DNA of 6,485 nucleotides from Dickeya dadantii NCPPB 898. GTDB lineage: Bacteria; Pseudomonadota; Gammaproteobacteria; Enterobacterales; Enterobacteriaceae. The notes below the pieces were generated by a model. The model had not been told where the DNA came from and searched no databases. It saw nothing but the letters and a program-made list of their open reading frames with translations. A program made the position numbers and the translations under genes. The stretch covers positions 1,428,730-1,435,214 of the forward strand of contig NZ_CM001976.1 of the NCBI RefSeq assembly GCF_000406145.1. The letters are read 5' to 3'. Of this stretch, positions 1-6,339 are shown piece by piece; position 1 is the first letter of the stretch; each line of letters begins with the position of its first letter.

Positions 1-421
1 CGCTCATTGAGCGATCCAGCTTCAAATTGGCACCGTCGATCACATAGGGATAAGGGATTTCCTTGTCCGACAGCGCGACTTCGATAGTGGCCGAATAATC
101 GTTTTCCAGGATCGCCAACTGTTCCGCCAGATAGTGCCGGAACAGCTGCGGCCGGGTGACGGTGGTGCGGTAGTTGCCGCCGTGGGTCAGGCGGCCGTAC
201 GCGCGGGTTTTGCTGTGCTTTTGGGACTGCCCGTCCCAACTGATGCGCAGTTCCGGGTAGACAAATAGCCCGTTGGCGCGCTCGGCGGCATCCGGCAGGG
301 TGCCGTGGGTAATAAAATCGCCGATTGCGGTGCGTAACGCTTTGACTGCGCGATCATACAGCGCTTCCAACTGGTCCAGCGCCTCGCTGGCGGACAGGCC
401 TGCGCCAGGTGCATAACTCAT
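1..421 (-). CDS. amn: AMP nucleosidase, N-terminal 140 codons; the gene continues past the left edge of the window
   Basis: Not in the supplied ORF track, probably because it is open at the edge. My minus-strand translation from ATG (complement of 419-421) reads MSYAPGAGLSASEALDQLEALYDRAVKALRTAIGDFITHGTLPDAAERANGLFVYPELRISWDGQSQKHSKTRAYGRLTHGGNYRTTVTRPQLFRHYLAEQLAILENDYSATIEVALSDKEIPYPYVIDGANLKLDRSMS. This is colinear with E. coli Amn as I remember it (LFVYP, WDG, KTRAFGR, ITRP.LFR.YL.EQL, EIPYPYVIDG..L.LDRSMS). A GGAG Shine-Dalgarno (complement of 427-430) lies 5 nt upstream of the ATG. The 75-aa track ORF at 187-414(-) is an out-of-frame artefact of this gene. Confidence 0.85.
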   Translation of the reverse strand, partial: MSYAPGAGLSASEALDQLEALYDRAVKALRTAIGDFITHGTLPDAAERANGLFVYPELRISWDGQSQKHSKTRAYGRLTHGGNYRTTVTRPQLFRHYLAEQLAILENDYSATIEVALSDKEIPYPYVIDGANLKLDRSMS

Positions 422-694
422 CTTCACTCCTTTTTTCCGATGCGATGGCCGACGCCATACAGTGCGCCCATTGTGGCACAGCACACATCACGGCACGATG
501 GGATAAAAGTGAATTTGAAAAGTCAGGGGGCGGTACCTTCATAGAAAACTAATTTGTGATTTATATCTCAAATTTAAGGGGTCGTTTCGCTCGCTTTTTA
601 AACCAATAAAGAACAAATGCAAAATCTGCGCATGGTCATTGCTTTATGAACGGGCGAAGTCACACCTAACCGTTCAACAACAAGGAGCAAGACC
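422..694. promoter_or_regulatory. Divergent amn / hcp intergenic control region
   Basis: This 273-bp non-coding stretch is clearly more AT-rich than both flanks and lies between two divergently oriented start codons (amn 421, hcp 695). It must hold both promoters. I could not place a convincing -35/-10 pair or a sigma-54 -24/-12 element by eye. Confidence 0.5.
551..572. promoter_or_regulatory. Candidate CRP (cAMP receptor protein) operator
   Basis: ATTTGTGAtttataTCTCAAAT has TGTGA at 554-558, a 6-nt spacer, and TCTCA at 565-569, against the consensus TGTGA-N6-TCACA. By my count it matches about 15 of 22 positions of the AAATGTGATCTAGATCACATTT consensus. It lies roughly midway between the divergent amn and hcp starts. 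Confidence 0.3.
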
Positions 695-1213
695 ATGCCA
701 ACTCCATGCTATATCAGCATCGAAGGTAAAACTCAGGGCAATATCACCGCCGGCGCCTTTACTTCCGACTCTGTCGGCAACATCTACGTGCAGGGCCACG
801 AAGATGAGATGCTGGTGCAGGAATTCAAACACATCGTCACCGTGCCGACCGACCCGCAGTCCGGCCAGCCGTCCGGTCAGCGCGTGCACAAACCGTTCAA
901 ATTCACCGTCGCCCTGAACAAGGCCGTGCCGCTGCTGTATAACGCGCTGGCGTCCGGCGAAATGCTGCCGACCGTGACCCTGAAGTGGTACCGCACGTCT
1001 GTCGAAGGCAAGCAGGAGCATTTCTTCACCACCAAACTGACCGACGCCACCATTGTCGACATCAACAACCAGATGCCGCACTGCCAGGACCCGTCCAAGC
1101 AGGATTACACCCAGCTGATCGAAGTGTCGCTGGCGTACCGCAAAATCGACTGGGAACACACCGTGGCCGGGACTTCCGGCTCTGACGACTGGCGCGCGCC
1201 GATCGAAGCGTAA
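695..1213 (+). CDS. hcp: Type VI secretion tube protein Hcp (TssD), 172 aa
   Basis: The translation MPTPCYISIEGKTQGNITAG...HEDEMLVQEF.H.VTVPTDPQSGQPSGQRVHKPFKFTVALNKAVPLLYNAL...KWYRTS.EGKQE.FFTTKL...MPHCQDP...AGTSGSDDWRAPIEA is near-identical in pattern to enterobacterial Hcp. AGGAG at 683-687 lies 7 nt before the ATG. The size (172 aa) is typical. Confidence 0.97.
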   Translation: MPTPCYISIEGKTQGNITAGAFTSDSVGNIYVQGHEDEMLVQEFKHIVTVPTDPQSGQPSGQRVHKPFKFTVALNKAVPLLYNALASGEMLPTVTLKWYRTSVEGKQEHFFTTKLTDATIVDINNQMPHCQDPSKQDYTQLIEVSLAYRKIDWEHTVAGTSGSDDWRAPIEA

Positions 1214-1255: not shown

Positions 1256-1378
1256 GTCTGCGCTGAGCGATGACGCGCCCATCGCTGAGTGCAGTCGTAT
1301 TGATCATGATTTTACGCTGACGCACGGCATCAGACCGGGTGTGCGGTAGCTATGGAGCCGGGGAAAGGAGGAAGCAAG

Positions 1379-3416
1379 GTGGCTAACAGTACAGGATTGC
1401 AGTTTACCGTGAAAATCGGCGCATTGGCGGACACCACCTTCGCGGTGGTGGATTTCGAACTGAGTGAGGCGCTGAACCAGCCGTTTGCGCTGTCGCTGAG
1501 TCTCGCCAGCAGTCAGGCCGATATCGATTTCGGCGCGGTGCTGGACCAACCGTGCGAGCTGATGGTGTGGTACGAAGGCGCACTGCAACGCCGGGTCAGC
1601 GGTATCGTCAGCCGCTTTGCCCAGGGCGACACCGGCTTTCGCCGCACCCGCTATCAGGCCGAGGTGCGCCCGGCGCTGTGGCGGCTGGGGCTGCGTACCA
1701 ACGCCCGTATCTTCCAGACCAAAAAGCCGGATGAGATTATCACCGAACTTGCTGCAAGAAGCCGGGATCACCGATTTTGCCTTTGCCCTGCGCCACGACC
1801 ACGCGGTGCGCGAATACTGCGTGCAGTACCGCGAAAGCGACCTGGCGTTCATCCACCGGCTGGCGGCGGAAGAAGGGCTGTTCTACTTCCACGAATTCGA
1901 AGCCGACAAGCACCGGGTGGTGTTTGCCGACGACGCCGGCGCGCTGACCAAAGGCCCCGAGCTGTTTTTTAACCTGGCAACACAAGGGCTGACCGAAGGC
2001 GCCTACGTGCGCCGTTTCCGCTACGCCGAAGCGGTAAGCACCGCCGAGGTGGAACTGAAAGATTACTGTTTTAAAACCCCGGCCTACGGGCTGTCGCACA
2101 AAAAGACCAGTAACGAGCTGGAGCACCAGCGCGAATCCTACCAGCACTTCGACTACCCCGGTCGTTTTAAGCAAGATCCGAGCGGCAAGGCGTTTACCGG
2201 CTACCGACTGGACGCGCTGCGTGCGGATGCGATAACCGGTGTGGGGGAGTCCAACGCCGCCGAACTGCGGCCGGGCAGCGCTTTTACCCTGACTGAACAC
2301 CCGAACCCGGCGTTCAATCTGGCCTGGCAGGTGGTGGCGGTGACCCACAGCGGTCAGCAGCCACAGGCGCTGGAAGAGGAAAGCGGCGGCGAGCCGACCA
2401 CGCTCAGCAACAGCTTTGAGGTGGTGAAAGGATCCACCACCTGGCGCGCGGCGCTGCCGTACAAGCCGATGGTAGACGGCCCGCAGATTGCCACCGTGGT
2501 CGGCCCGGCGGGCGAAGAGATTTACTGCGATAAATTTGGCCGGGTGAAGCTGCAATTCCCGTGGGACCGCTACGGCGCCAGCGACGACCAGAGCTCCTGC
2601 TGGGTGCGGGTCAGTCAGGGCTGGGCCGGCGGGCAGTACGGGTTAATCGCCATTCCACGTATCGGCCATGAGGTGGTGGTGAGCTTTCTGGAGGGCGACC
2701 CGGACCAGCCGCTTATCACCGGCCGGACGTTCCATGCCACCAACCCCACGCCGTATGTGCTGCCGGAGCACAAAACACGCACTACGCTGCGTACCGATAC
2801 CCACAAAGGCAGCGGTTTCAACGAACTTCGTTTCGAAGATGAGGCCACCCGGGAGCAGATTTACCTGCACGCACAGAAAGACATGGACGCGGTGATCAAC
2901 AACATTCATCGCCAGAGCGTCGGGTTGGATCAGCATCTGAGTGTGGCGAACGACCAGTTCCAGCGGGTGGATCGCCATAGCCATCGCACCATCGGGCAGG
3001 ATGATTTTGAACAGATTGGGCAGGACCATCATCAATCGATTGGTCGCCATCTCGTACAGAGCATCACCCAGTCATTCAAGCGCTTTATCGGCGGCGGCGA
3101 GATCACCCGTATTGAAGGCAGCCGCCAGACTACGCTGTCTGGTTCGGAAGAGACGCTGATCGGCGCGCATCAGCGGGTGCTGGTCAATACCGACAGCTAC
3201 CTCAAGGCGGCGGATATCGTGCTGGAAGCCGGGCAGTCGCTGACTATCAAAGCACCCGGCGGATTTATCAAAATCGACGGCGCCGGCGTCACCATCTCCG
3301 GCACGGTGGTGAAAATCAACGACGGCGGTTCCGCAGGCGCGGGCACGGCGCCGGTGTCGATCGAGCCGGAGGCTCCCACCAGACCGACGCTGCCAGATGC
3401 GCCGGACCGGCGTTAA
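1379..3416 (+). pseudogene. vgrG: VgrG (TssI) spike protein gene with a +1 frame disruption near 1748-1751
   Basis: The 5' part (track ORF 1352-1972) reads (M)[43 protein letters not shown]...[36 protein letters not shown] and then turns into Arg/Pro-rich nonsense. VgrG-like sequence resumes one frame over (track ORF 1617-3416) as [47 protein letters not shown]. That frame continues through the gp5 OB-fold ([33 protein letters not shown]...[47 protein letters not shown]) and the beta-helix repeats to a stop at 3414-3416. The likely true start is GTG 1379, with GGAGG at 1367-1371 and a 7-nt spacer. ATG 1352 has no Shine-Dalgarno sequence. Removing one nucleotide from CTTG (1748-1751) gives a single 678-codon ORF. 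Confidence 0.88.
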
Positions 3417-3425
3417 GGAGTCACC

Positions 3426-4796
3426 ATGCCAGGAGCTGCGCGTTTAGGGGACAGCTGTGCCGGTCACGGCTGCTTTCCCGCCACCCCGGTGATTGCGGGC
3501 AGTGGCGATGTGATTATCAATGGCAAACCGGCGGCGCGTAAAGGCGATGCGGTGTTGCTGCACGCCTGCCCATGCCCGAATATGCCGCACGGGGTTCACA
3601 GCCGGGCGATTTCCGCCGGTTCTGGTACGGTGATCATCAACGGTAAGCTGGCCGCCCGTATCGGCGATGCCATCGGCTGTGGCGGCTCGGTGGCGGCCGG
3701 CAGCGGGGATGTGATTATTGGCGATACGCCTTACCAGTCGCCGGTTAAATCCTGTGCGGAACAGTCGGCGAAAAGCCGCGCTCCGCTGCTGGCGCTAACG
3801 CCGATGCTGCTGCCCGCCATGATGGAATGGGCAGCAACCGTCGAACTGCCGGTGCTGGATGAAGCGCTGACGGTATTACAGCGTAAGGATCGCTATCTGG
3901 CGCGCGCTAAGCTGGCGCAACAGGCGGCGACCATGCCGAGCCTGAAAGACGCCGCCACCCGACTGGCGTTTAACAACGACAGCATCTTGCGCGCCGAAGC
4001 GGCGCAGTATGTTTATCCGGTGGATGAATTTAGACGTAAGGTAAGGGCTGTTTTGCCAAAGCCTCCTGTTGGACTTGAGGTTATTGATATAAAGAGCTTT
4101 CCTAAAATTACTCCTAAGCAATTTACTGACCCAGACTCAGGATTTGGAGCAGCGCTATTTAAGTCATCTATTAATAATGAAACGATGTTGACATTTAGAG
4201 GAACCAATAATGGTGTAACAGGTGCTAAAGATTGGCTTACAAATGGGGCTCAAGGAATAGGATTTGAAACAGCTCAATATAATCAGGCAATGGATTTGGC
4301 AAAATTGATGAAGAGACTTGTATCTCCAGAACCTGTTATTGTTGGTCACTCTTTAGGGGGAGGGTTAGCTTCTGCTGCTGTTAGTGCAACCAAATTACCA
4401 GGGTATATTTTTAATGCTGCTGGTCTTCATGCCAACACTGTTGCTAGGCAACAAGGTGCTGATTTGGCTACTACCAGTTCCTTAATTAAAACTCAAGCAG
4501 TAGATGGCGAAATCCTTACTATGCTCCAATCCTATGGCAAAGTTGCTGTACCGGGTTTACTTTCTGGTGCGGGTGCTTTGATCGGGGGTAAGGTTGGGGC
4601 TATTGCTGGTGGAGTGGCTGGTATTACGACATTGTTAGCTGGCTCTCTTCCCAGCGCTTTAGGTGAGATGAAAACATTACCTAGTTCAGGGGGATCTCCA
4701 TTAGCCCGACACGGCATGGACCAAGTTGTAGCCGGTATTGAAAAAGAAAAGAAAGAAGATATTGGAAAAATTACCAGCACGCTTAAGGGGGCATAA
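3426..4796 (+). CDS. tle: PAAR-domain T6SS effector fused to a GxSxG alpha/beta-hydrolase (class-3-like lipase/phospholipase) toxin domain, 456 aa
   Basis: The N-terminus (aa 1-100) is a PAAR spike-tip domain: AARLGDSCAGHG...VIINGKPAARKGD...VIINGKLAARIGD...GSGDVIIGD, with Cys/His metal-ligand candidates. The C-terminus has lipase_3-type motifs: GFGAALFKS...MLTFRGTNNGVTGAKDWLTN, the nucleophile elbow VIVGHSLGGGLA (Ser309, nt 4350-4352), a candidate Asp360 (4503-4505) and a candidate His429 (4710-4712). AGGAG at 3416-3420 precedes the ATG, 9 nt after the vgrG stop. The symbol tle is used only in the generic sense of type VI lipase effector, and no Tle1-4 subfamily is assigned. Confidence 0.9.
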   Translation: MPGAARLGDSCAGHGCFPATPVIAGSGDVIINGKPAARKGDAVLLHACPCPNMPHGVHSRAISAGSGTVIINGKLAARIGDAIGCGGSVAAGSGDVIIGDTPYQSPVKSCAEQSAKSRAPLLALTPMLLPAMMEWAATVELPVLDEALTVLQRKDRYLARAKLAQQAATMPSLKDAATRLAFNNDSILRAEAAQYVYPVDEFRRKVRAVLPKPPVGLEVIDIKSFPKITPKQFTDPDSGFGAALFKSSINNETMLTFRGTNNGVTGAKDWLTNGAQGIGFETAQYNQAMDLAKLMKRLVSPEPVIVGHSLGGGLASAAVSATKLPGYIFNAAGLHANTVARQQGADLATTSSLIKTQAVDGEILTMLQSYGKVAVPGLLSGAGALIGGKVGAIAGGVAGITTLLAGSLPSALGEMKTLPSSGGSPLARHGMDQVVAGIEKEKKEDIGKITSTLKGA

Positions 4797-5575
4797 TGCG
4801 ATGGTTACAGAAAATCAAATGGATCGCCGTATTGTTTGCGGGAATATTGACCGCCTGTCAGGCCGGAGGGCACAGCATGCAGGCCAGTGAATTGTTCCAG
4901 CCACCGATGGCGGCTTTATTGCAGACCATCCGCAAAGGTGATGAAGCGGAAGCACGGCGCCAGCTAGCCCAGGGGCTGAATCTGAATATTCAGGGTAAAG
5001 AAGGGATTACGCCGCTGCTGTGGCTGATTTATGAAACGCAGGATAAGAACGCAGTACGGCTGGCGTTAAAACTGGGGGCCGATCCAAATTACAAAGATGG
5101 CTCAGGCGACAGTGCGGTAAACCGGGTATCCGGTGTGCGTGATCCGGACTGGTTGCGCATTGTTCTGGATGCCGGGGGAAATCCGAATGCCATTGGGAGA
5201 CTTGAGCAACCGGCGTTATTTAGTGCGATAGGTGAAGAGCGCTGGGCCGATATCAAACTGTTGGTAGAGCGAGGGGCAGATATAAATTTAAAAGATAGTT
5301 TGGATAGAAACAGTGTGTTGTATGCGGGGTATTTGAATAAATATGAAATCGCATATTGGCTAATAGAAAAGGGTGCTGATATTACCATATATGATGCAAC
5401 AGGTAGTAATATGGCATGGACTGTGGAAGATAGTTTATCTGTTATGCCACATAATGCAGCGTCGTATCCGTGGGGCATTAAAGTAAGAGAATTGCTACAA
5501 CAACGCGGTATTAAATTTCCCCCCTTATCTCCGGCAGAAGTACGGGAGCGCCGTGCTAAAGGGGAGCCGCTTTGA
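4796..5575 (+). CDS. tli: Ankyrin-repeat lipoprotein, putative cognate immunity protein for the lipase effector, 259 aa
   Basis: The start ATG overlaps the effector stop (TAATG, 4794-4798), which suggests translational coupling. The N-terminus MRWLQKIKWIAVLFAGILTAC is a lipoprotein signal peptide with lipobox L-T-A-C (Cys21, 4856-4858). The body contains several ANK repeats (GITPLLWLIYE..NAVRLALKLGADPNYKD; DWLRIVLDAGGNPNA; RWADIKLLVERGADINLKD; YEIAYWLIEKGADITIYD). The position directly 3' of a periplasm-acting lipase toxin fits an immunity role. Confidence 0.88.
   Translation: MRWLQKIKWIAVLFAGILTACQAGGHSMQASELFQPPMAALLQTIRKGDEAEARRQLAQGLNLNIQGKEGITPLLWLIYETQDKNAVRLALKLGADPNYKDGSGDSAVNRVSGVRDPDWLRIVLDAGGNPNAIGRLEQPALFSAIGEERWADIKLLVERGADINLKDSLDRNSVLYAGYLNKYEIAYWLIEKGADITIYDATGSNMAWTVEDSLSVMPHNAASYPWGIKVRELLQQRGIKFPPLSPAEVRERRAKGEPL
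4852..5290 (+). repeat. Direct repeat copy A (about 435 bp, 5' two-thirds of tli copy 1)
   Basis: My hand alignment to 5616-6054 (offset 764 bp) finds about 26 mismatches and no indels, or about 94% identity. Identity starts within a few nt of the lipobox Cys codon and drops abruptly after ...GCAGATAT(A/C)AATTTA. Confidence 0.85.
4865..4879 (+). promoter_or_regulatory. Internal ribosome-binding site plus in-frame ATG (Met28) just after the lipobox Cys of tli copy 1
   Basis: GGAGG at 4865-4869 is followed by the 7-nt spacer GCACAGC and ATG at 4877-4879. The ATG is in frame, 7 codons after Cys21. The Shine-Dalgarno sequence is stronger than the one at the annotated start. Confidence 0.55.
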
Positions 5576-6339
5576 GGTGGTGGCATTGTCTGCTGGCTTG
5601 CGTGCCGCTGTTAAGCGCCTGTCAGGCAGGAGGGCACAGCATGCAGGCCAGTGAGTTGTTCCAGCCACCGATGGCGGCCTTATTGCAGGCCATCCGCAAA
5701 GGTGATGAAGCGGAAGCACGGCGTCAGCTAGCCCAGGGGCTGAATCTGAATATTCACGGTAAAGAAGGGATTACGCCGCTGCTGTGGTTGATTTATGAAA
5801 CGCAGGATAAGAACGCGGTACGGCTGGCGCTAAAGCTGGGCGCTGACCCGAATTATAAAGATGGTTCAGGCGACAGCGCGGTAAACCGGGTATCCGGTGT
5901 GCGTGATCCGGACTGGTTGCGCATTGTTCTGGATGCCGGGGGAAATCCGAATGCCATTGGGAGACTTGGTCAACCGGCATTATTGAGTGCGATCAATGAA
6001 GAGCGCTGGGCCGATATCAAACTGTTGGTAGAGCGTGGGGCAGATATCAATTTAGCAGACAGGCAGAAAAGAAATAGCGCGCTTTATGCTGCGTATATCA
6101 ATCAATATGAGATTGTTTATTGGCTAATAGAGCGTGGTGCTAAAGTCGACACTTATTCTGCCACCGGTGGCAGCCTGGCCTGGCGGGTATATGAAAGCCT
6201 GTCAATAATGGCGCAGAATTCGCCACAATATCCCTGGTTGTTAAAGGTTAAACAGCAGTTACAACAGCGCGGTATTAATTTCCCCCCGCTGTCTCCGGCA
6301 GAGGTACAGGATAAATGGGAACGGGGTGAATTCCTTTAA
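5572..6339 (+). CDS. tli: Second ankyrin-repeat lipoprotein paralog (putative additional or orphan immunity protein), 255 aa from a TTG start
   Basis: This is a paralog of the upstream gene. The only in-frame start that includes a signal peptide is TTG 5572-5574, which overlaps the upstream stop (TTGA, 5572-5575). GGGGAG lies 5 nt upstream. The signal peptide is short: MRWWHCLLACVPLLSAC, with lipobox L-S-A-C (Cys17, 5620-5622). The 5' end is uncertain, and translation may begin mainly at the internal ATG 5641. Confidence 0.8.
   Translation: MRWWHCLLACVPLLSACQAGGHSMQASELFQPPMAALLQAIRKGDEAEARRQLAQGLNLNIHGKEGITPLLWLIYETQDKNAVRLALKLGADPNYKDGSGDSAVNRVSGVRDPDWLRIVLDAGGNPNAIGRLGQPALLSAINEERWADIKLLVERGADINLADRQKRNSALYAAYINQYEIVYWLIERGAKVDTYSATGGSLAWRVYESLSIMAQNSPQYPWLLKVKQQLQQRGINFPPLSPAEVQDKWERGEFL
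5616..6054 (+). repeat. Direct repeat copy B (about 435 bp, 5' two-thirds of tli copy 2)
   Basis: This is the partner of 4852-5290. See that entry for the alignment details. Confidence 0.85.
5629..5643 (+). promoter_or_regulatory. Internal ribosome-binding site plus in-frame ATG (Met24) just after the lipobox Cys of tli copy 2
   Basis: The arrangement matches copy 1: GGAGG at 5629-5633, the 7-nt spacer GCACAGC, and ATG at 5641-5643, 7 codons after Cys17. It is conserved even though the upstream signal-peptide codons are unrelated between the copies. Confidence 0.55.

What the first reader, a model, noticed from the sequence alone, without database searches (positions are those of the whole stretch)
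4005..4796. Abrupt GC-content break inside the effector ORF: the lipase core looks like a horizontally swapped toxin module
Seen in sequence from hand counts of 60-nt lines: 3901-3960 is about 72% GC. In contrast, 4021-4080 is about 47%, 4081-4140 about 33% and 4141-4200 about 33%. The low GC persists to the effector stop and on through the tli copy 1 signal-peptide codons (4796-4855, about 45%). The switch falls within about 25 nt around codons 194-202 (AEAAQYVYPVDEF). This lies downstream of the PAAR domain and linker, in what looks like the first conserved helix of the lipase fold. Codon style changes as well, from GC3-rich to AT3-rich. Established knowledge: polymorphic toxins exchange C-terminal toxin domains and their cognate immunity genes by recombination at conserved junctions. 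Inference: the host-like PAAR and linker acquired a foreign, low-GC lipase core.
Basis: partly seen in the sequence, partly recalled or inferred. Interest (0 to 1): 0.65.

Follow-up and report, generated by a model that had tools for sequence, protein, structure and literature searches.

The report
Swapped toxin cassette in Dickeya lipase
The sharp GC drop inside this Dickeya type VI secretion lipase gene is real and marks where a conserved delivery part joins an exchangeable low-GC toxin cassette with its matching immunity segment, which is the usual behaviour of polymorphic bacterial toxins.

Summary
GC3 in the effector ORF (3426-4796) falls from 0.70 to 0.27, with the change point after codon 194 (nt 4007; support 3995-4025; 0 of 2000 permutations). 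Host codon usage predicts a GC3 of 0.76 for the same amino acids, so the shift is synonymous.

The gene is a PAAR-fused 'Tle6' phospholipase (PDB 9CYS/7UBZ, E 6e-28). Two ankyrin lipoprotein tli genes follow it, in the Dickeya amn-hcp-vgrG-Tle-tli-Rhs locus.

Ten Dickeya loci share codons 1-197 (95-98% aa), and that part groups by species. Codons 198-456 fall into three or more allele classes (68-77% aa) that cut across species. The window's class-a core is 96-98% nt identical in D. chrysanthemi, D. zeae and D. undicola, where the flanks are 85-93%. A D. dadantii strain carries class b at the same locus: flanks 96-97%, core 69%.

The C-terminal third of tli1 (about 5280-5520) co-varies with the core. 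tli2 resembles the first tli behind class-b effectors, so it is probably an orphan immunity gene.

- The swapped piece is a divergent allele of the same lipase, not a different toxin.
- The junction lies inside the lipase domain.
- No donor outside Dickeya was found.

This is a known kind of system.

The parts
1..421 (-). 5' part of amn (AMP nucleosidase). It is the housekeeping flank that anchors the locus and was used as the species-level divergence yardstick.
   Evidence: Window 1-632 is identical to L080 4563-5194, which overlaps the called amn gene (PF10423/PF01048). Identity to other Dickeya species is 83.5-92.4%.
695..1213 (+). hcp (T6SS tube protein), host-like composition.
   Evidence: Pfam T6SS_HCP, E 1.1e-32. 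GC3 0.80.
1352..3416 (+). vgrG spike gene, split over two reading frames in the window by an extra G at 1745.
   Evidence: Pfam Phage_GPD, Phage_base_V and Gp5_trimer_C hits fall on two overlapping ORFs. Comparison with L080 shows a 1-nt insertion at 1745 plus clustered mismatches at 1743-1799.
3426..4796 (+). PAAR-Tle6 phospholipase effector, 456 aa.
   Evidence: Pfam PAAR_motif covers aa 19-90, E 9.7e-19. PDB 7UBZ_B/9CYS 'T6SS lipase effector' matches aa 154-451, E 6.2e-28. Full-length homologs occur in Dickeya, Pectobacterium, Brenneria, Aeromonas and Shewanella.
3426..4016 (+). Constant, host-like part of the effector: PAAR, linker and the first two helices of the lipase domain. It includes R160 (nt 3903-3905), the counterpart of the E. 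cloacae crosslink residue Arg180.
   Evidence: GC3 0.70. It is 95-98% aa identical in all Dickeya alleles and its tree follows species. The AF2 model has helices at aa 150-167 and 171-203. R160 is invariant in alignment A1 and aligns with chain residue 21, which is Arg180 (PMC11470151).
3995..4025 (+). Junction: the GC3 change point coincides with the 5' recombination boundary. All Dickeya alleles are near-identical through ...GCGCAGTATGTTTATCCGGTGGATGA and diverge after about nt 4027.
   Evidence: Change-point support interval. Nucleotide alignment of 11 alleles. In the comparison with D. dadantii class b, mismatches per 30 nt jump from 2 (bin 3990-4019) to 10 (bin 4020-4049).
4017..4775 (+). 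Variable low-GC cassette block 1. It holds the lipase core with S309 (4350-4352), E362 (4509-4511) and H429 (4710-4712), and the C-terminal helix with E439/K442 (4740-4751).
   Evidence: GC3 0.27. Identity to class a in other species is 95.7-97.8% nt, and to classes b and c 65-71% nt. The 3' boundary against class b is at about 4775. The triad and crosslink residues are invariant in A1 and align with S341/E393/H448 and E458/K461 of 9CYS.
4796..5575 (+). tli1, the presumed cognate ankyrin-repeat lipoprotein immunity gene. It overlaps the effector stop codon by 1 nt. The lipobox LTAC is at aa 18-21.
   Evidence: Pfam Ank_2, E 1.3e-11. PDB 7UBZ_A (Tli), E 7.9e-20. Every class-a effector examined is followed by a tli whose C-part is 95-99% aa identical to this one.
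5280..5520 (+). Variable low-GC block 2: the C-terminal third of tli1, which co-varies with the lipase core. It is the likely specificity-determining part.
   Evidence: GC is 31-41% across 5221-5520 and GC3 is 0.34. Mismatches against D. dadantii class b cluster at 5280-5519, while 4775-5279 is about 96% identical. Identity to class a in D. undicola is 94-97% here. In E. cloacae Tli most contacts come from helices alpha8, alpha10 and alpha12.
5572..6339 (+). tli2, a second ankyrin lipoprotein gene and a probable orphan immunity gene of class-b type. Its variable part is about 5880-6245.
   Evidence: Pfam Ank_2, E 5.3e-12. Its C-part is 88% aa identical to the first tli behind the D. dadantii class-b effector, 94% to that of D. 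fangzhongdai b2, and only 64% to tli1.
4847..5146 (+). Repeat copy 1, shared by the 5' parts of tli1 and tli2 (copy 2 is at 5611-5910, 94% identical). It is the proposed 3' homology arm for cassette exchange and array growth.
   Evidence: the repeat finder family D1. The N-parts of tli1 and tli2 are 97% aa identical.

Best explanation
The window is the Dickeya amn-hcp-vgrG locus. It encodes a PAAR-tipped T6SS phospholipase of the Tle6 family and ankyrin-lipoprotein Tli immunity proteins.

The GC break at nt 3995-4025 is the boundary between two kinds of sequence:
- A constant delivery part: PAAR, linker and the first two lipase helices. Its composition is host-like and it follows the species tree.
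- An exchangeable toxin cassette: the lipase core (4017 to about 4775) together with the matching C-terminal third of tli1 (about 5280-5520).

The cassette exists as several deeply diverged allele classes. I infer that it moves between Dickeya lineages by homologous recombination. In this model the 5' crossover lies in the conserved NNDSILRAEAAQYVYPVDE coding stretch or upstream of it. The 3' crossover lies in conserved tli sequence.

The window carries class a, the most AT-rich class. Across species, class a is far more similar than the surrounding DNA.

tli2 looks like the immunity gene of a class-b toxin. It was probably retained as an orphan after an earlier exchange (inferred).

By homology to E. 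cloacae Tle/Tli, the effector should be a periplasm-acting phospholipase A1. Tli should neutralise it, and it may need Tli-dependent Arg-Lys crosslinking (R160-K442) for activity (inferred).
For: Composition:
- GC3 is 0.70 before and 0.27 after the junction. The change point is at nt 4007 and is not explained by amino-acid usage.
- Housekeeping neighbours have GC3 0.76-0.82.

Family:
- PAAR Pfam hit and 7UBZ/9CYS lipase at E 6e-28.
- The aligned triad S309/E362/H429 and the crosslink residues R160/E439/K442 are invariant in 19 homologs.
- Tli matches 7UBZ_A at E 8e-20.

Constant versus variable parts:
- Within Dickeya the N-part is 95-98% aa identical. The C-part is 68-77% between classes, as divergent as between genera.

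Orthologous-locus replacements:
- D. dadantii class b (L090): flanks 96-97%, core 68.6%, tli1 5' part 95.9%, tli1 3' part 72.8%.
- D. zeae (a) vs D. oryzae (c): flanks about 97%, cassette 60-73%, with sharp edges.

Incongruent trees: the N-part follows species and the C-part follows allele class.

Cross-species similarity of class a:
- The core is 95.7-97.8% nt identical. amn is 85-92%, vgrG 87-89% and the N-part 89-93%.
- Fisher test of (vgrG+N) vs C mismatches: p = 5e-13 to 3e-11.
- Class a occurs in at least six named Dickeya species.

Immunity:
- Every class-a effector examined is followed by an a-type tli1.
- Window tli2 is b-type.
- D. oryzae keeps an a-type tli without an a-type toxin.

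Precedent in the same locus: GC3 of the downstream Rhs drops from 0.76 to 0.49 over its last ~700 nt, which contain the PxxxxDPxGL motif. Its immunity gene has GC3 0.22.
Against: - No donor with a closer core was found outside Dickeya; the best non-class-a match is 78% aa or less. No copy was found on plasmids or phages, or in metagenomes by one exact pattern.
- In the nucleotide NJ tree all Dickeya core alleles group together against other genera (bootstrap 100). An origin from a distant low-GC taxon is therefore not shown.
- Class-a core divergence from the window ranks the three other species in the same order as flank divergence (chrysanthemi < undicola < zeae). The ratio is roughly constant at 0.3-0.4. 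Co-divergence at a slower rate would give the same pattern.
- Between class-a loci of different species, the high-identity tract stops at the GC boundary instead of running into the flanks. This needs either crossovers close to the junction or later re-homogenisation of the constant parts within each species.
- Function and Tli specificity are inferred from homology only.
Confidence: 0.82

Rival explanations
1. Ancient balanced polymorphism inherited vertically. Under this view classes a, b and c pre-date Dickeya speciation and were never transferred. The class-a core looks young across species only because AT-rich DNA accumulates synonymous changes about three times more slowly.
For: Class-a core divergence from the window keeps the same species order as the flanks and a near-constant ratio of about 0.3-0.4. 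The identity step coincides with the GC boundary in all three cross-species pairs. All Dickeya core alleles group together in the nucleotide tree.
Against: A simple mutation-selection calculation predicts nearly equal synonymous rates for GC3 0.27 and GC3 0.70 (ratio 1.11; this is my model, not a measurement). Class c, which is also AT-enriched (GC3 0.38-0.39), shows no slowdown: between D. chrysanthemi and D. oryzae the cassette is about 0.90 identical and the flanks about 0.91. The species-order argument rests on three points and would arise by chance 1 time in 6. It is also what transfer that favours close relatives would give.
Confidence: 0.12
2. The low GC arose in place rather than in a low-GC donor. 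Cassettes cannot recombine with other allele classes, so they escape GC-biased gene conversion and selection on codon usage. They then drift toward the AT-rich mutational equilibrium. The constant parts recombine freely and stay GC-rich. This rival concerns only the cause of the low GC and is compatible with cassette exchange.
For: In nearly all Pectobacteriaceae orthologs the C-part has lower GC3 than the N-part (0.44-0.55 vs 0.54-0.71). Dickeya classes form a graded series: b 0.38-0.52, c 0.38-0.39, a 0.24-0.28. No external donor was found. Where a majority state could be called among non-a alleles, class-a third positions show more GC-to-AT than AT-to-GC differences (28 vs 15).
Against: Reaching GC3 0.27 from about 0.7 needs near-saturation of synonymous sites on the class-a branch alone, although class a is the allele with the least cross-species divergence. 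The 28 vs 15 count is weak, and 154 of 259 codons had no majority state. The neighbouring Rhs tip and its immunity gene show the same drop, and such drops are usually read as lateral acquisition (PMC2935791).
Confidence: 0.25
3. The break is an artefact or chance: an assembly chimera, or an effect of amino-acid composition.
For: None found. GC1 and GC2 also fall slightly (0.655 to 0.544 and 0.538 to 0.479).
Against: The same effector sequence, or a near-identical one, with the same junction occurs in independent assemblies: CP023467.1, D. dadantii JABEOZ01, Ech1591 CP001655, CM001985, QJJH01 and D. undicola JSYG01. Expected GC3 from the amino acids is 0.76 against 0.27 observed, and 0 of 2000 permutations reached the observed change point.
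Confidence: 0.01

Closest known systems
Tle6 / Tle(ECL)-Tli of Enterobacter cloacae ATCC 13047 (PDB 9CYS, 7UBZ; Jensen et al. 2023, bioRxiv 10.1101/2023.03.28.534661; Jensen et al. 2024, PMC11470151)
   Same: It has the same lipase fold and a GHSLG nucleophile elbow. The aligned Ser/Glu/His triad and the Arg/Glu/Lys crosslink positions are conserved. An ankyrin-repeat lipoprotein immunity gene lies directly downstream, and the locus is T6SS-linked. Jensen 2023 already lists Dickeya PAAR fusions of this lipase with ankyrin immunity genes.
   Different: The match to the solved lipase is distant (E 6e-28 over aa 154-451). Here the lipase is fused to a canonical PAAR domain. The locus carries two to six tandem tli genes. 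None of the papers I read here describes allele classes or an intragenic composition break for this family.
Rhs C-terminal displacement and polymorphic toxin systems (Jackson et al. 2009, PMC2935791; Zhang et al. 2012, PMC3482391)
   Same: A conserved N-terminal or core part is evolutionarily decoupled from a variable C-terminal toxin plus immunity gene. Exchange is by homologous recombination at a conserved junction. Orphan immunity genes accumulate downstream. A GC drop occurs at the junction, and the Rhs gene of this same locus shows one.
   Different: The variable pieces here are alleles of one lipase family, not unrelated toxin folds. The junction lies inside the toxin domain rather than at a domain-boundary motif such as PxxxxDPxGL. 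No displaced toxin fragments were seen in the loci examined, only extra immunity genes. The immunity gene is itself a mosaic, with only its C-terminal third varying between classes a and b.
Slp of Serratia marcescens, and the PAAR-lipase (PCBA_RS18045) with Ank immunity of Pectobacterium brasiliense 1692 (bioRxiv 10.1101/391854)
   Same: The Pectobacterium gene has the same PAAR, alpha/beta-hydrolase GxSxG and downstream Ank arrangement. Pectobacterium brasiliense proteins of this family are 78% identical to the window effector over the full length.
   Different: Pectobacterium orthologs show only a modest GC3 difference between the two parts (about 0.54-0.63 vs 0.44-0.53). The relation to Slp is taken from Jensen 2023/2024 and was not tested here.

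Membership tests
Tle6 T6SS phospholipase (E. cloacae Tle type) | Significant sequence similarity to the solved Tle lipase domain | tested here: met
   phmmer vs PDB: 7ubz_B/9cys 'T6SS lipase effector', E 6.2e-28, query aa 154-451 against chain residues 15-311.
Tle6 T6SS phospholipase (E. cloacae Tle type) | Ser/Glu/His catalytic triad with the serine in a GxSxG elbow | tested here: met
   GHSLG at aa 307-311. S309, E362 and H429 align with Ser341, Glu393 and His448 and are invariant in 19 homologs.
Tle6 T6SS phospholipase (E. cloacae Tle type) | Arg (helix alpha1) and Lys (last helix) pair, plus a Glu, used for the methylglyoxal (MODIC) crosslink | tested here: met
   R160, E439 and K442 align with Arg180, Glu458 and Lys461 and are invariant. 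Only residue conservation was tested. The crosslink itself cannot be tested with these tools.
Tle6 T6SS phospholipase (E. cloacae Tle type) | Ankyrin-repeat lipoprotein immunity gene immediately downstream | tested here: met
   tli1 has Ank Pfam hits, matches 7ubz_A at E 7.9e-20, carries the lipobox LTAC at aa 18-21 and overlaps the effector stop codon.
Tle6 T6SS phospholipase (E. cloacae Tle type) | Phospholipase A1 activity, Tli-dependent activation and T6SS-dependent delivery | not testable with these tools
   Only the context supports it: hcp and vgrG upstream and an N-terminal PAAR domain.
Polymorphic toxin system with exchangeable C-terminal cassette | Conserved N-terminal delivery part joined to a variable C-terminal toxin part in close relatives | tested here: met
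   Within Dickeya the N-part is 95-98% aa identical and the C-part 68-77% between classes.
Polymorphic toxin system with exchangeable C-terminal cassette | Immunity gene co-varies with the toxin part | tested here: met
   All five class-a effectors are followed by a tli1 whose C-part is 95-99% identical. The first tli behind class-b and class-c effectors is 62-76% identical in that part.
Polymorphic toxin system with exchangeable C-terminal cassette | Evolutionary decoupling of the two parts (recombination) | tested here: met
   Bootstrapped NJ trees are incongruent. Identity steps are sharp at an orthologous locus. Fisher tests give p = 1e-5 to 5e-13. No formal recombination-detection program was run.
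Polymorphic toxin system with exchangeable C-terminal cassette | Orphan immunity genes or cassettes downstream | tested here: met
   Window tli2 is b-type. D. oryzae has six tli genes, including an a-type one without an a-type toxin. No orphan toxin fragments were seen.
Polymorphic toxin system with exchangeable C-terminal cassette | Cassettes encode unrelated toxin folds | tested here: not met
   All full-length relatives carry the same lipase domain. Different C-termini behind a related PAAR occur only where the match ends at about aa 99-166 (loci L040 and L043-L051), and those were not examined further.

The most novel reading that the evidence does not exclude
The class-a cassette is a recent arrival from an unsampled low-GC source. 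It has spread across at least six Dickeya species by recombination at a junction placed inside the lipase domain.

That placement would keep the first two lipase helices, including the crosslinking arginine, as a universal adaptor in the constant part. Any incoming core carrying the conserved C-terminal lysine could then still be circularised and activated.

Toxin-immunity specificity would reside only in the lipase core and the last ankyrin repeats of Tli.
Probability: 0.25. Interest if true: 0.45.

Novelty: new member of a known kind. Interest (0 to 1): 0.3.

Why it matters
The result turns a composition oddity into a mapped exchange unit for a recently defined effector family (Tle6).

- It delimits which parts of the lipase and of Tli vary together. 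That points to testable specificity determinants: the lipase core and the last Tli repeats.
- It shows that the residues needed for the unusual glycation crosslink are kept on both sides of the junction.
- It suggests that Dickeya strains of one species can differ in this toxin and may therefore antagonise each other. That bears on strain competition in soft-rot disease.

It does not reveal a new kind of system.

Tried and rejected
- Looked for a donor with a protein search using the core alone (aa 198-456). Nothing closer than 75% turned up.
- Searched the cassette DNA (4017-5560) against plasmid and phage collections in distant mode. There was no match.
- Scanned metagenome contigs for a 41-nt stretch that is invariant in class a. 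There was no match. I did not use the second scan that was allowed.
- Looked for a Chi site at the junction. The only exact GCTGGTGG is at 4605-4612, inside the cassette.
- A GC-only hairpin followed by a T-rich tail sits at 3991-4005 on the junction. Such sites are not more frequent than in shuffles (4 found vs 3.2 expected), and it lies in conserved coding sequence, so I treat it as coincidence.
- I first thought the variable block was bracketed by the two crosslinked helices. The fine map shows that the DNA of the last helix diverges at synonymous sites up to about 4775, so only its protein sequence is conserved.
- D. chrysanthemi CP128510 (L088) and D. fangzhongdai (L089) carry their copies in different genomic contexts. 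They may be paralogous loci, so I based the allele-replacement argument on loci that share the amn-hcp context.
- The AF2 model is unreliable for aa 1-146 (pLDDT below 50). I used it only for the helices from aa 150 onward and ran no fold search.
Full report
**Observation**

The window holds, on the + strand, hcp (695-1213), a vgrG split over two frames (1352-3416), a 456-aa effector (3426-4796) and two ankyrin genes (4796-5575 and 5572-6339).

- In the effector, GC3 is 0.695 for codons 1-197 and 0.274 for codons 198-456. GC1 and GC2 fall only slightly. The Fisher test on GC3 counts gives p = 2.8e-19.
- The maximum-likelihood change point is after codon 194 (nt 4007), with support nt 3995-4025. 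None of 2000 permutations reached it.
- Re-encoding the C-part with the codon usage of hcp, vgrG and the N-part predicts GC3 0.76 (all).

The break is real, sharp and synonymous. Low GC runs to about 4860. It returns at 5221-5520, with a GC-richer stretch in between.

**What the gene is**

- The N-terminus is a PAAR domain (aa 19-90, E 1e-18).
- Residues 154-451 match the solved 'T6SS lipase effector' of Enterobacter cloacae (7UBZ/9CYS, E 6e-28).
- That paper names the group Tle6. It defines a Ser341/Glu393/His448 triad and a methylglyoxal crosslink between Arg180 (helix alpha1) and Lys461 (last helix), helped by Glu458.
- In the HMMER alignment these map to S309/E362/H429 and to R160/K442/E439. 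All six are invariant in an alignment of 19 homologs running from Dickeya to more distant marine gammaproteobacteria.
- tli1 matches the Tli chain 7UBZ_A (E 8e-20) and has a lipobox.
- An AlphaFold model is confident only from aa 150 onward. It shows helices at 150-167 and 171-203.

The junction (codons 194-201) therefore lies inside the lipase domain, at the end of its second helix. It is not at the PAAR/linker boundary.

**Source**

The effector is nucleotide-identical to CP023467.1 (a 4.99-Mb Dickeya chromosome). The 90%-identity cluster of this protein includes D. dadantii 3937, D. zeae, D. chrysanthemi Ech1591, D. fangzhongdai, D. undicola and D. ananatis.

The locus is syntenic across Dickeya. 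The order is amn, hcp, vgrG, PAAR-Tle, a tli array, two DUF4123 genes and Rhs.

**Comparative evidence**

*Composition in relatives.* Full-length PAAR-lipase proteins occur in Dickeya, Pectobacterium, Brenneria, Lonsdalea, Aeromonas, Shewanella and Vibrio. The fusion itself is therefore old. After splitting every ortholog at the RAEAAQYVY motif, most Pectobacteriaceae show a modest GC3 drop (0.54-0.71 to 0.44-0.55). Only the window's allele class reaches 0.24-0.28.

*Constant and variable parts.* Within Dickeya the N-part is 95-98% aa identical everywhere. The C-part falls into classes:
- class a (98% to the window);
- class b (75-78%);
- class c (68-70%).

These classes are as far apart from each other as from Pectobacterium or Brenneria.

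*Replacement at the same locus.*

| Comparison | Flanks | Core | tli1 |
|---|---|---|---|
| Window vs D. dadantii L090 (class b) | 96-97% | 68.6% (4029-4796) | 5' part 95.9%, C-terminal part 72.8% |
| D. zeae (a) vs D. oryzae (c) | about 97% | 65-71% | 60-73% |

Against D. dadantii class b, mismatches per 30 nt jump at 4020. They fall back at about 4775, rise again over 5280-5519 and once more over 5880-6245.

*Trees.* NJ trees with 200 bootstraps are incongruent. The N-part groups by species (100 for dadantii+solani, for the two chrysanthemi strains, and for zeae+oryzae+parazeae). The core groups by class (94 for class a across four species besides the window, 100 for oryzae+chrysanthemi class c).

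*Breakpoints.* The nucleotide alignment shows all alleles near-identical up to about nt 4027. D. parazeae keeps class-a sequence to about 4078, so breakpoints differ among alleles.

**Age of the class-a core**

Against D. chrysanthemi, D. undicola and D. zeae the class-a core is 97.8, 96.6 and 95.7% identical to the window. The N-part is 93.4, 90.7 and 89.5%, the vgrG 3' part 89.1, 88.1 and 87.0%, and amn 92.4, 86.9 and 85.2%. The difference is significant in each pair (N vs C p about 1e-5; vgrG+N vs C p = 5e-13 to 3e-11).

I read this as spread of the cassette among species after they diverged.

There is a caveat. The three ratios are similar (about 0.3-0.4) and the species order is the same as for the flanks. 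A slower clock in AT-rich DNA could mimic this pattern.

Two points argue against a slower clock:
- A simple mutation-selection calculation gives nearly equal synonymous rates for the two compositions (ratio 1.11). This is my own model.
- Class c, which is also AT-enriched, has diverged as much as its flanks between D. chrysanthemi and D. oryzae (about 0.90 vs 0.91).

**Immunity genes**

- Each of the five class-a effectors is followed by a tli whose C-terminal part is 95-99% identical to window tli1.
- Window tli2 has a C-part 88-94% identical to the first tli behind the class-b effectors of D. dadantii and D. fangzhongdai, and only 64% identical to tli1.
- D. oryzae, which has a class-c effector, carries six tli genes. 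The fourth is a-type (97%).
- tli1 and tli2 share a 300-nt repeat at 94% identity, starting at the lipobox codons.

In the E. cloacae complex most contacts come from Tli helices alpha8, alpha10 and alpha12. Tli sequesters the lid helix of the lipase. This fits the C-terminal third of Tli and the lipase core varying together, although I did not map the contacts residue by residue.

**Proposed mechanism**

Shown:
- A constant, species-tracking part and a class-tracking cassette, with a boundary at nt 3995-4027.
- Co-variation of the lipase core with the C-terminal third of tli1.
- Extra tli genes whose types match other toxin classes.

Inferred:
- Exchange is by homologous recombination. One crossover lies in or upstream of the conserved NNDSILRAEAAQYVYPVDE coding stretch and the other in conserved tli sequence.
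- An incoming a-type core plus tli was placed in front of a resident b-type tli, which survives as tli2.
- The constant parts are later re-homogenised within each species.

Inferred from homology: phospholipase A1 activity in the target periplasm, neutralisation by periplasmic Tli, and Tli-dependent R160-K442 crosslinking.

**Origin of the low GC**

No closer core was found outside Dickeya, on plasmids or phages, or in metagenomes. In the nucleotide tree the Dickeya cores group together.

Two readings remain open. The AT-richness may come from an unsampled donor. Alternatively it may reflect decay of a non-recombining cassette toward mutational equilibrium.

The same locus offers the textbook parallel. 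Rhs GC3 is 0.76 and drops to 0.49 over its last ~700 nt, which contain the PxxxxDPxGL motif. Its immunity gene has GC3 0.22. Jackson et al. 2009 described core/tip decoupling and C-terminal displacement by homologous recombination for Rhs.

**Comparison with known systems, and novelty**

The family (Tle6 with ankyrin Tli) is known, and its PAAR fusions in Dickeya and Pectobacterium have been noted. Cassette exchange with orphan immunity genes is the defining behaviour of polymorphic toxins.

I did not find the following points in the papers I read:
- allele classes of this lipase at one Dickeya locus;
- a junction inside the lipase domain that leaves the crosslinking arginine in the constant part;
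- the mosaic tli;
- the cross-species similarity of class a.

This is a new member, and a well-resolved example, of a known kind. Interest is modest.

Noticed in passing
window 1743-1799 (vgrG): Relative to CP023467.1 the window has an extra G at 1745 and eight further mismatches clustered in 1743-1799. These split vgrG into two frames (1352-1972 and 1617-3416). The pattern looks like a short gene-conversion patch from a paralogous vgrG, or a sequence error.
   Followed up: partly
L080 5195-5339 and 5962-7827 (CP023467.1), corresponding to window ~632 and ~1251: The otherwise 99.7-100% identical chromosome carries a group II intron reverse transcriptase gene (RVT_1/GIIM) between hcp and vgrG, and 145 extra bases upstream of hcp. 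The window lacks both. hcp itself is only 97.4% identical.
   Followed up: no
window 4847-5146 and 5611-5910: A 300-nt direct repeat (94% identical) is shared by the 5' parts of tli1 and tli2. It starts exactly at the lipobox codons. It suggests concerted evolution of tli 5' parts and could serve as a homology arm for array growth.
   Followed up: partly
L006 7371-11952 (Dickeya oryzae ZYY5): Six tandem tli genes follow a class-c effector. The fourth is 96-97% aa identical to window tli1, although no class-a toxin is present in that locus. It is an orphan immunity gene.
   Followed up: partly
L080 14974-20308 (downstream of the window): The Rhs gene of the same locus has GC3 0.76, falling to 0.49 over its last ~700 nt, which contain the PxxxxDPxGL motif (aa 1527). 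The following DUF7716 gene has GC3 0.22. This is a second low-GC toxin-immunity tip in the same cluster.
   Followed up: partly
window 3991-4005: A perfect 6-bp GC-only hairpin (GCGCCGAAGCGGCGC) followed by AGTATGTTTA sits exactly on the junction. The number of such terminator-like sites in the region is not above that in shuffles.
   Followed up: partly
window 4605-4612: The only exact Chi sequence (GCTGGTGG) in the window lies inside the low-GC cassette. One-mismatch Chi-like octamers are more frequent in the window than in shuffles (19 vs 7.3 expected).
   Followed up: no
L088 (D. chrysanthemi CP128510.1) and L089 (D. fangzhongdai CP119773.1): These PAAR-Tle copies sit in other genomic contexts: near rpsF-priB-rpsR-rplI without a called hcp or vgrG, and next to an Hsp70-like gene. 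Some Dickeya may therefore carry paralogous Tle loci besides the amn-linked one.
   Followed up: no
L040, L043-L051: Several genomes, including Pectobacterium versatile and Lonsdalea species that also have the full-length gene, encode a second protein. It matches only aa 1 to about 128-166 of the effector at 61-74% identity. These are presumably related PAAR-linker parts joined to other C-termini.
   Followed up: no
window 481-720: A low-GC (35-43%) intergenic stretch lies between amn and hcp. It is probably the hcp promoter region.
   Followed up: no
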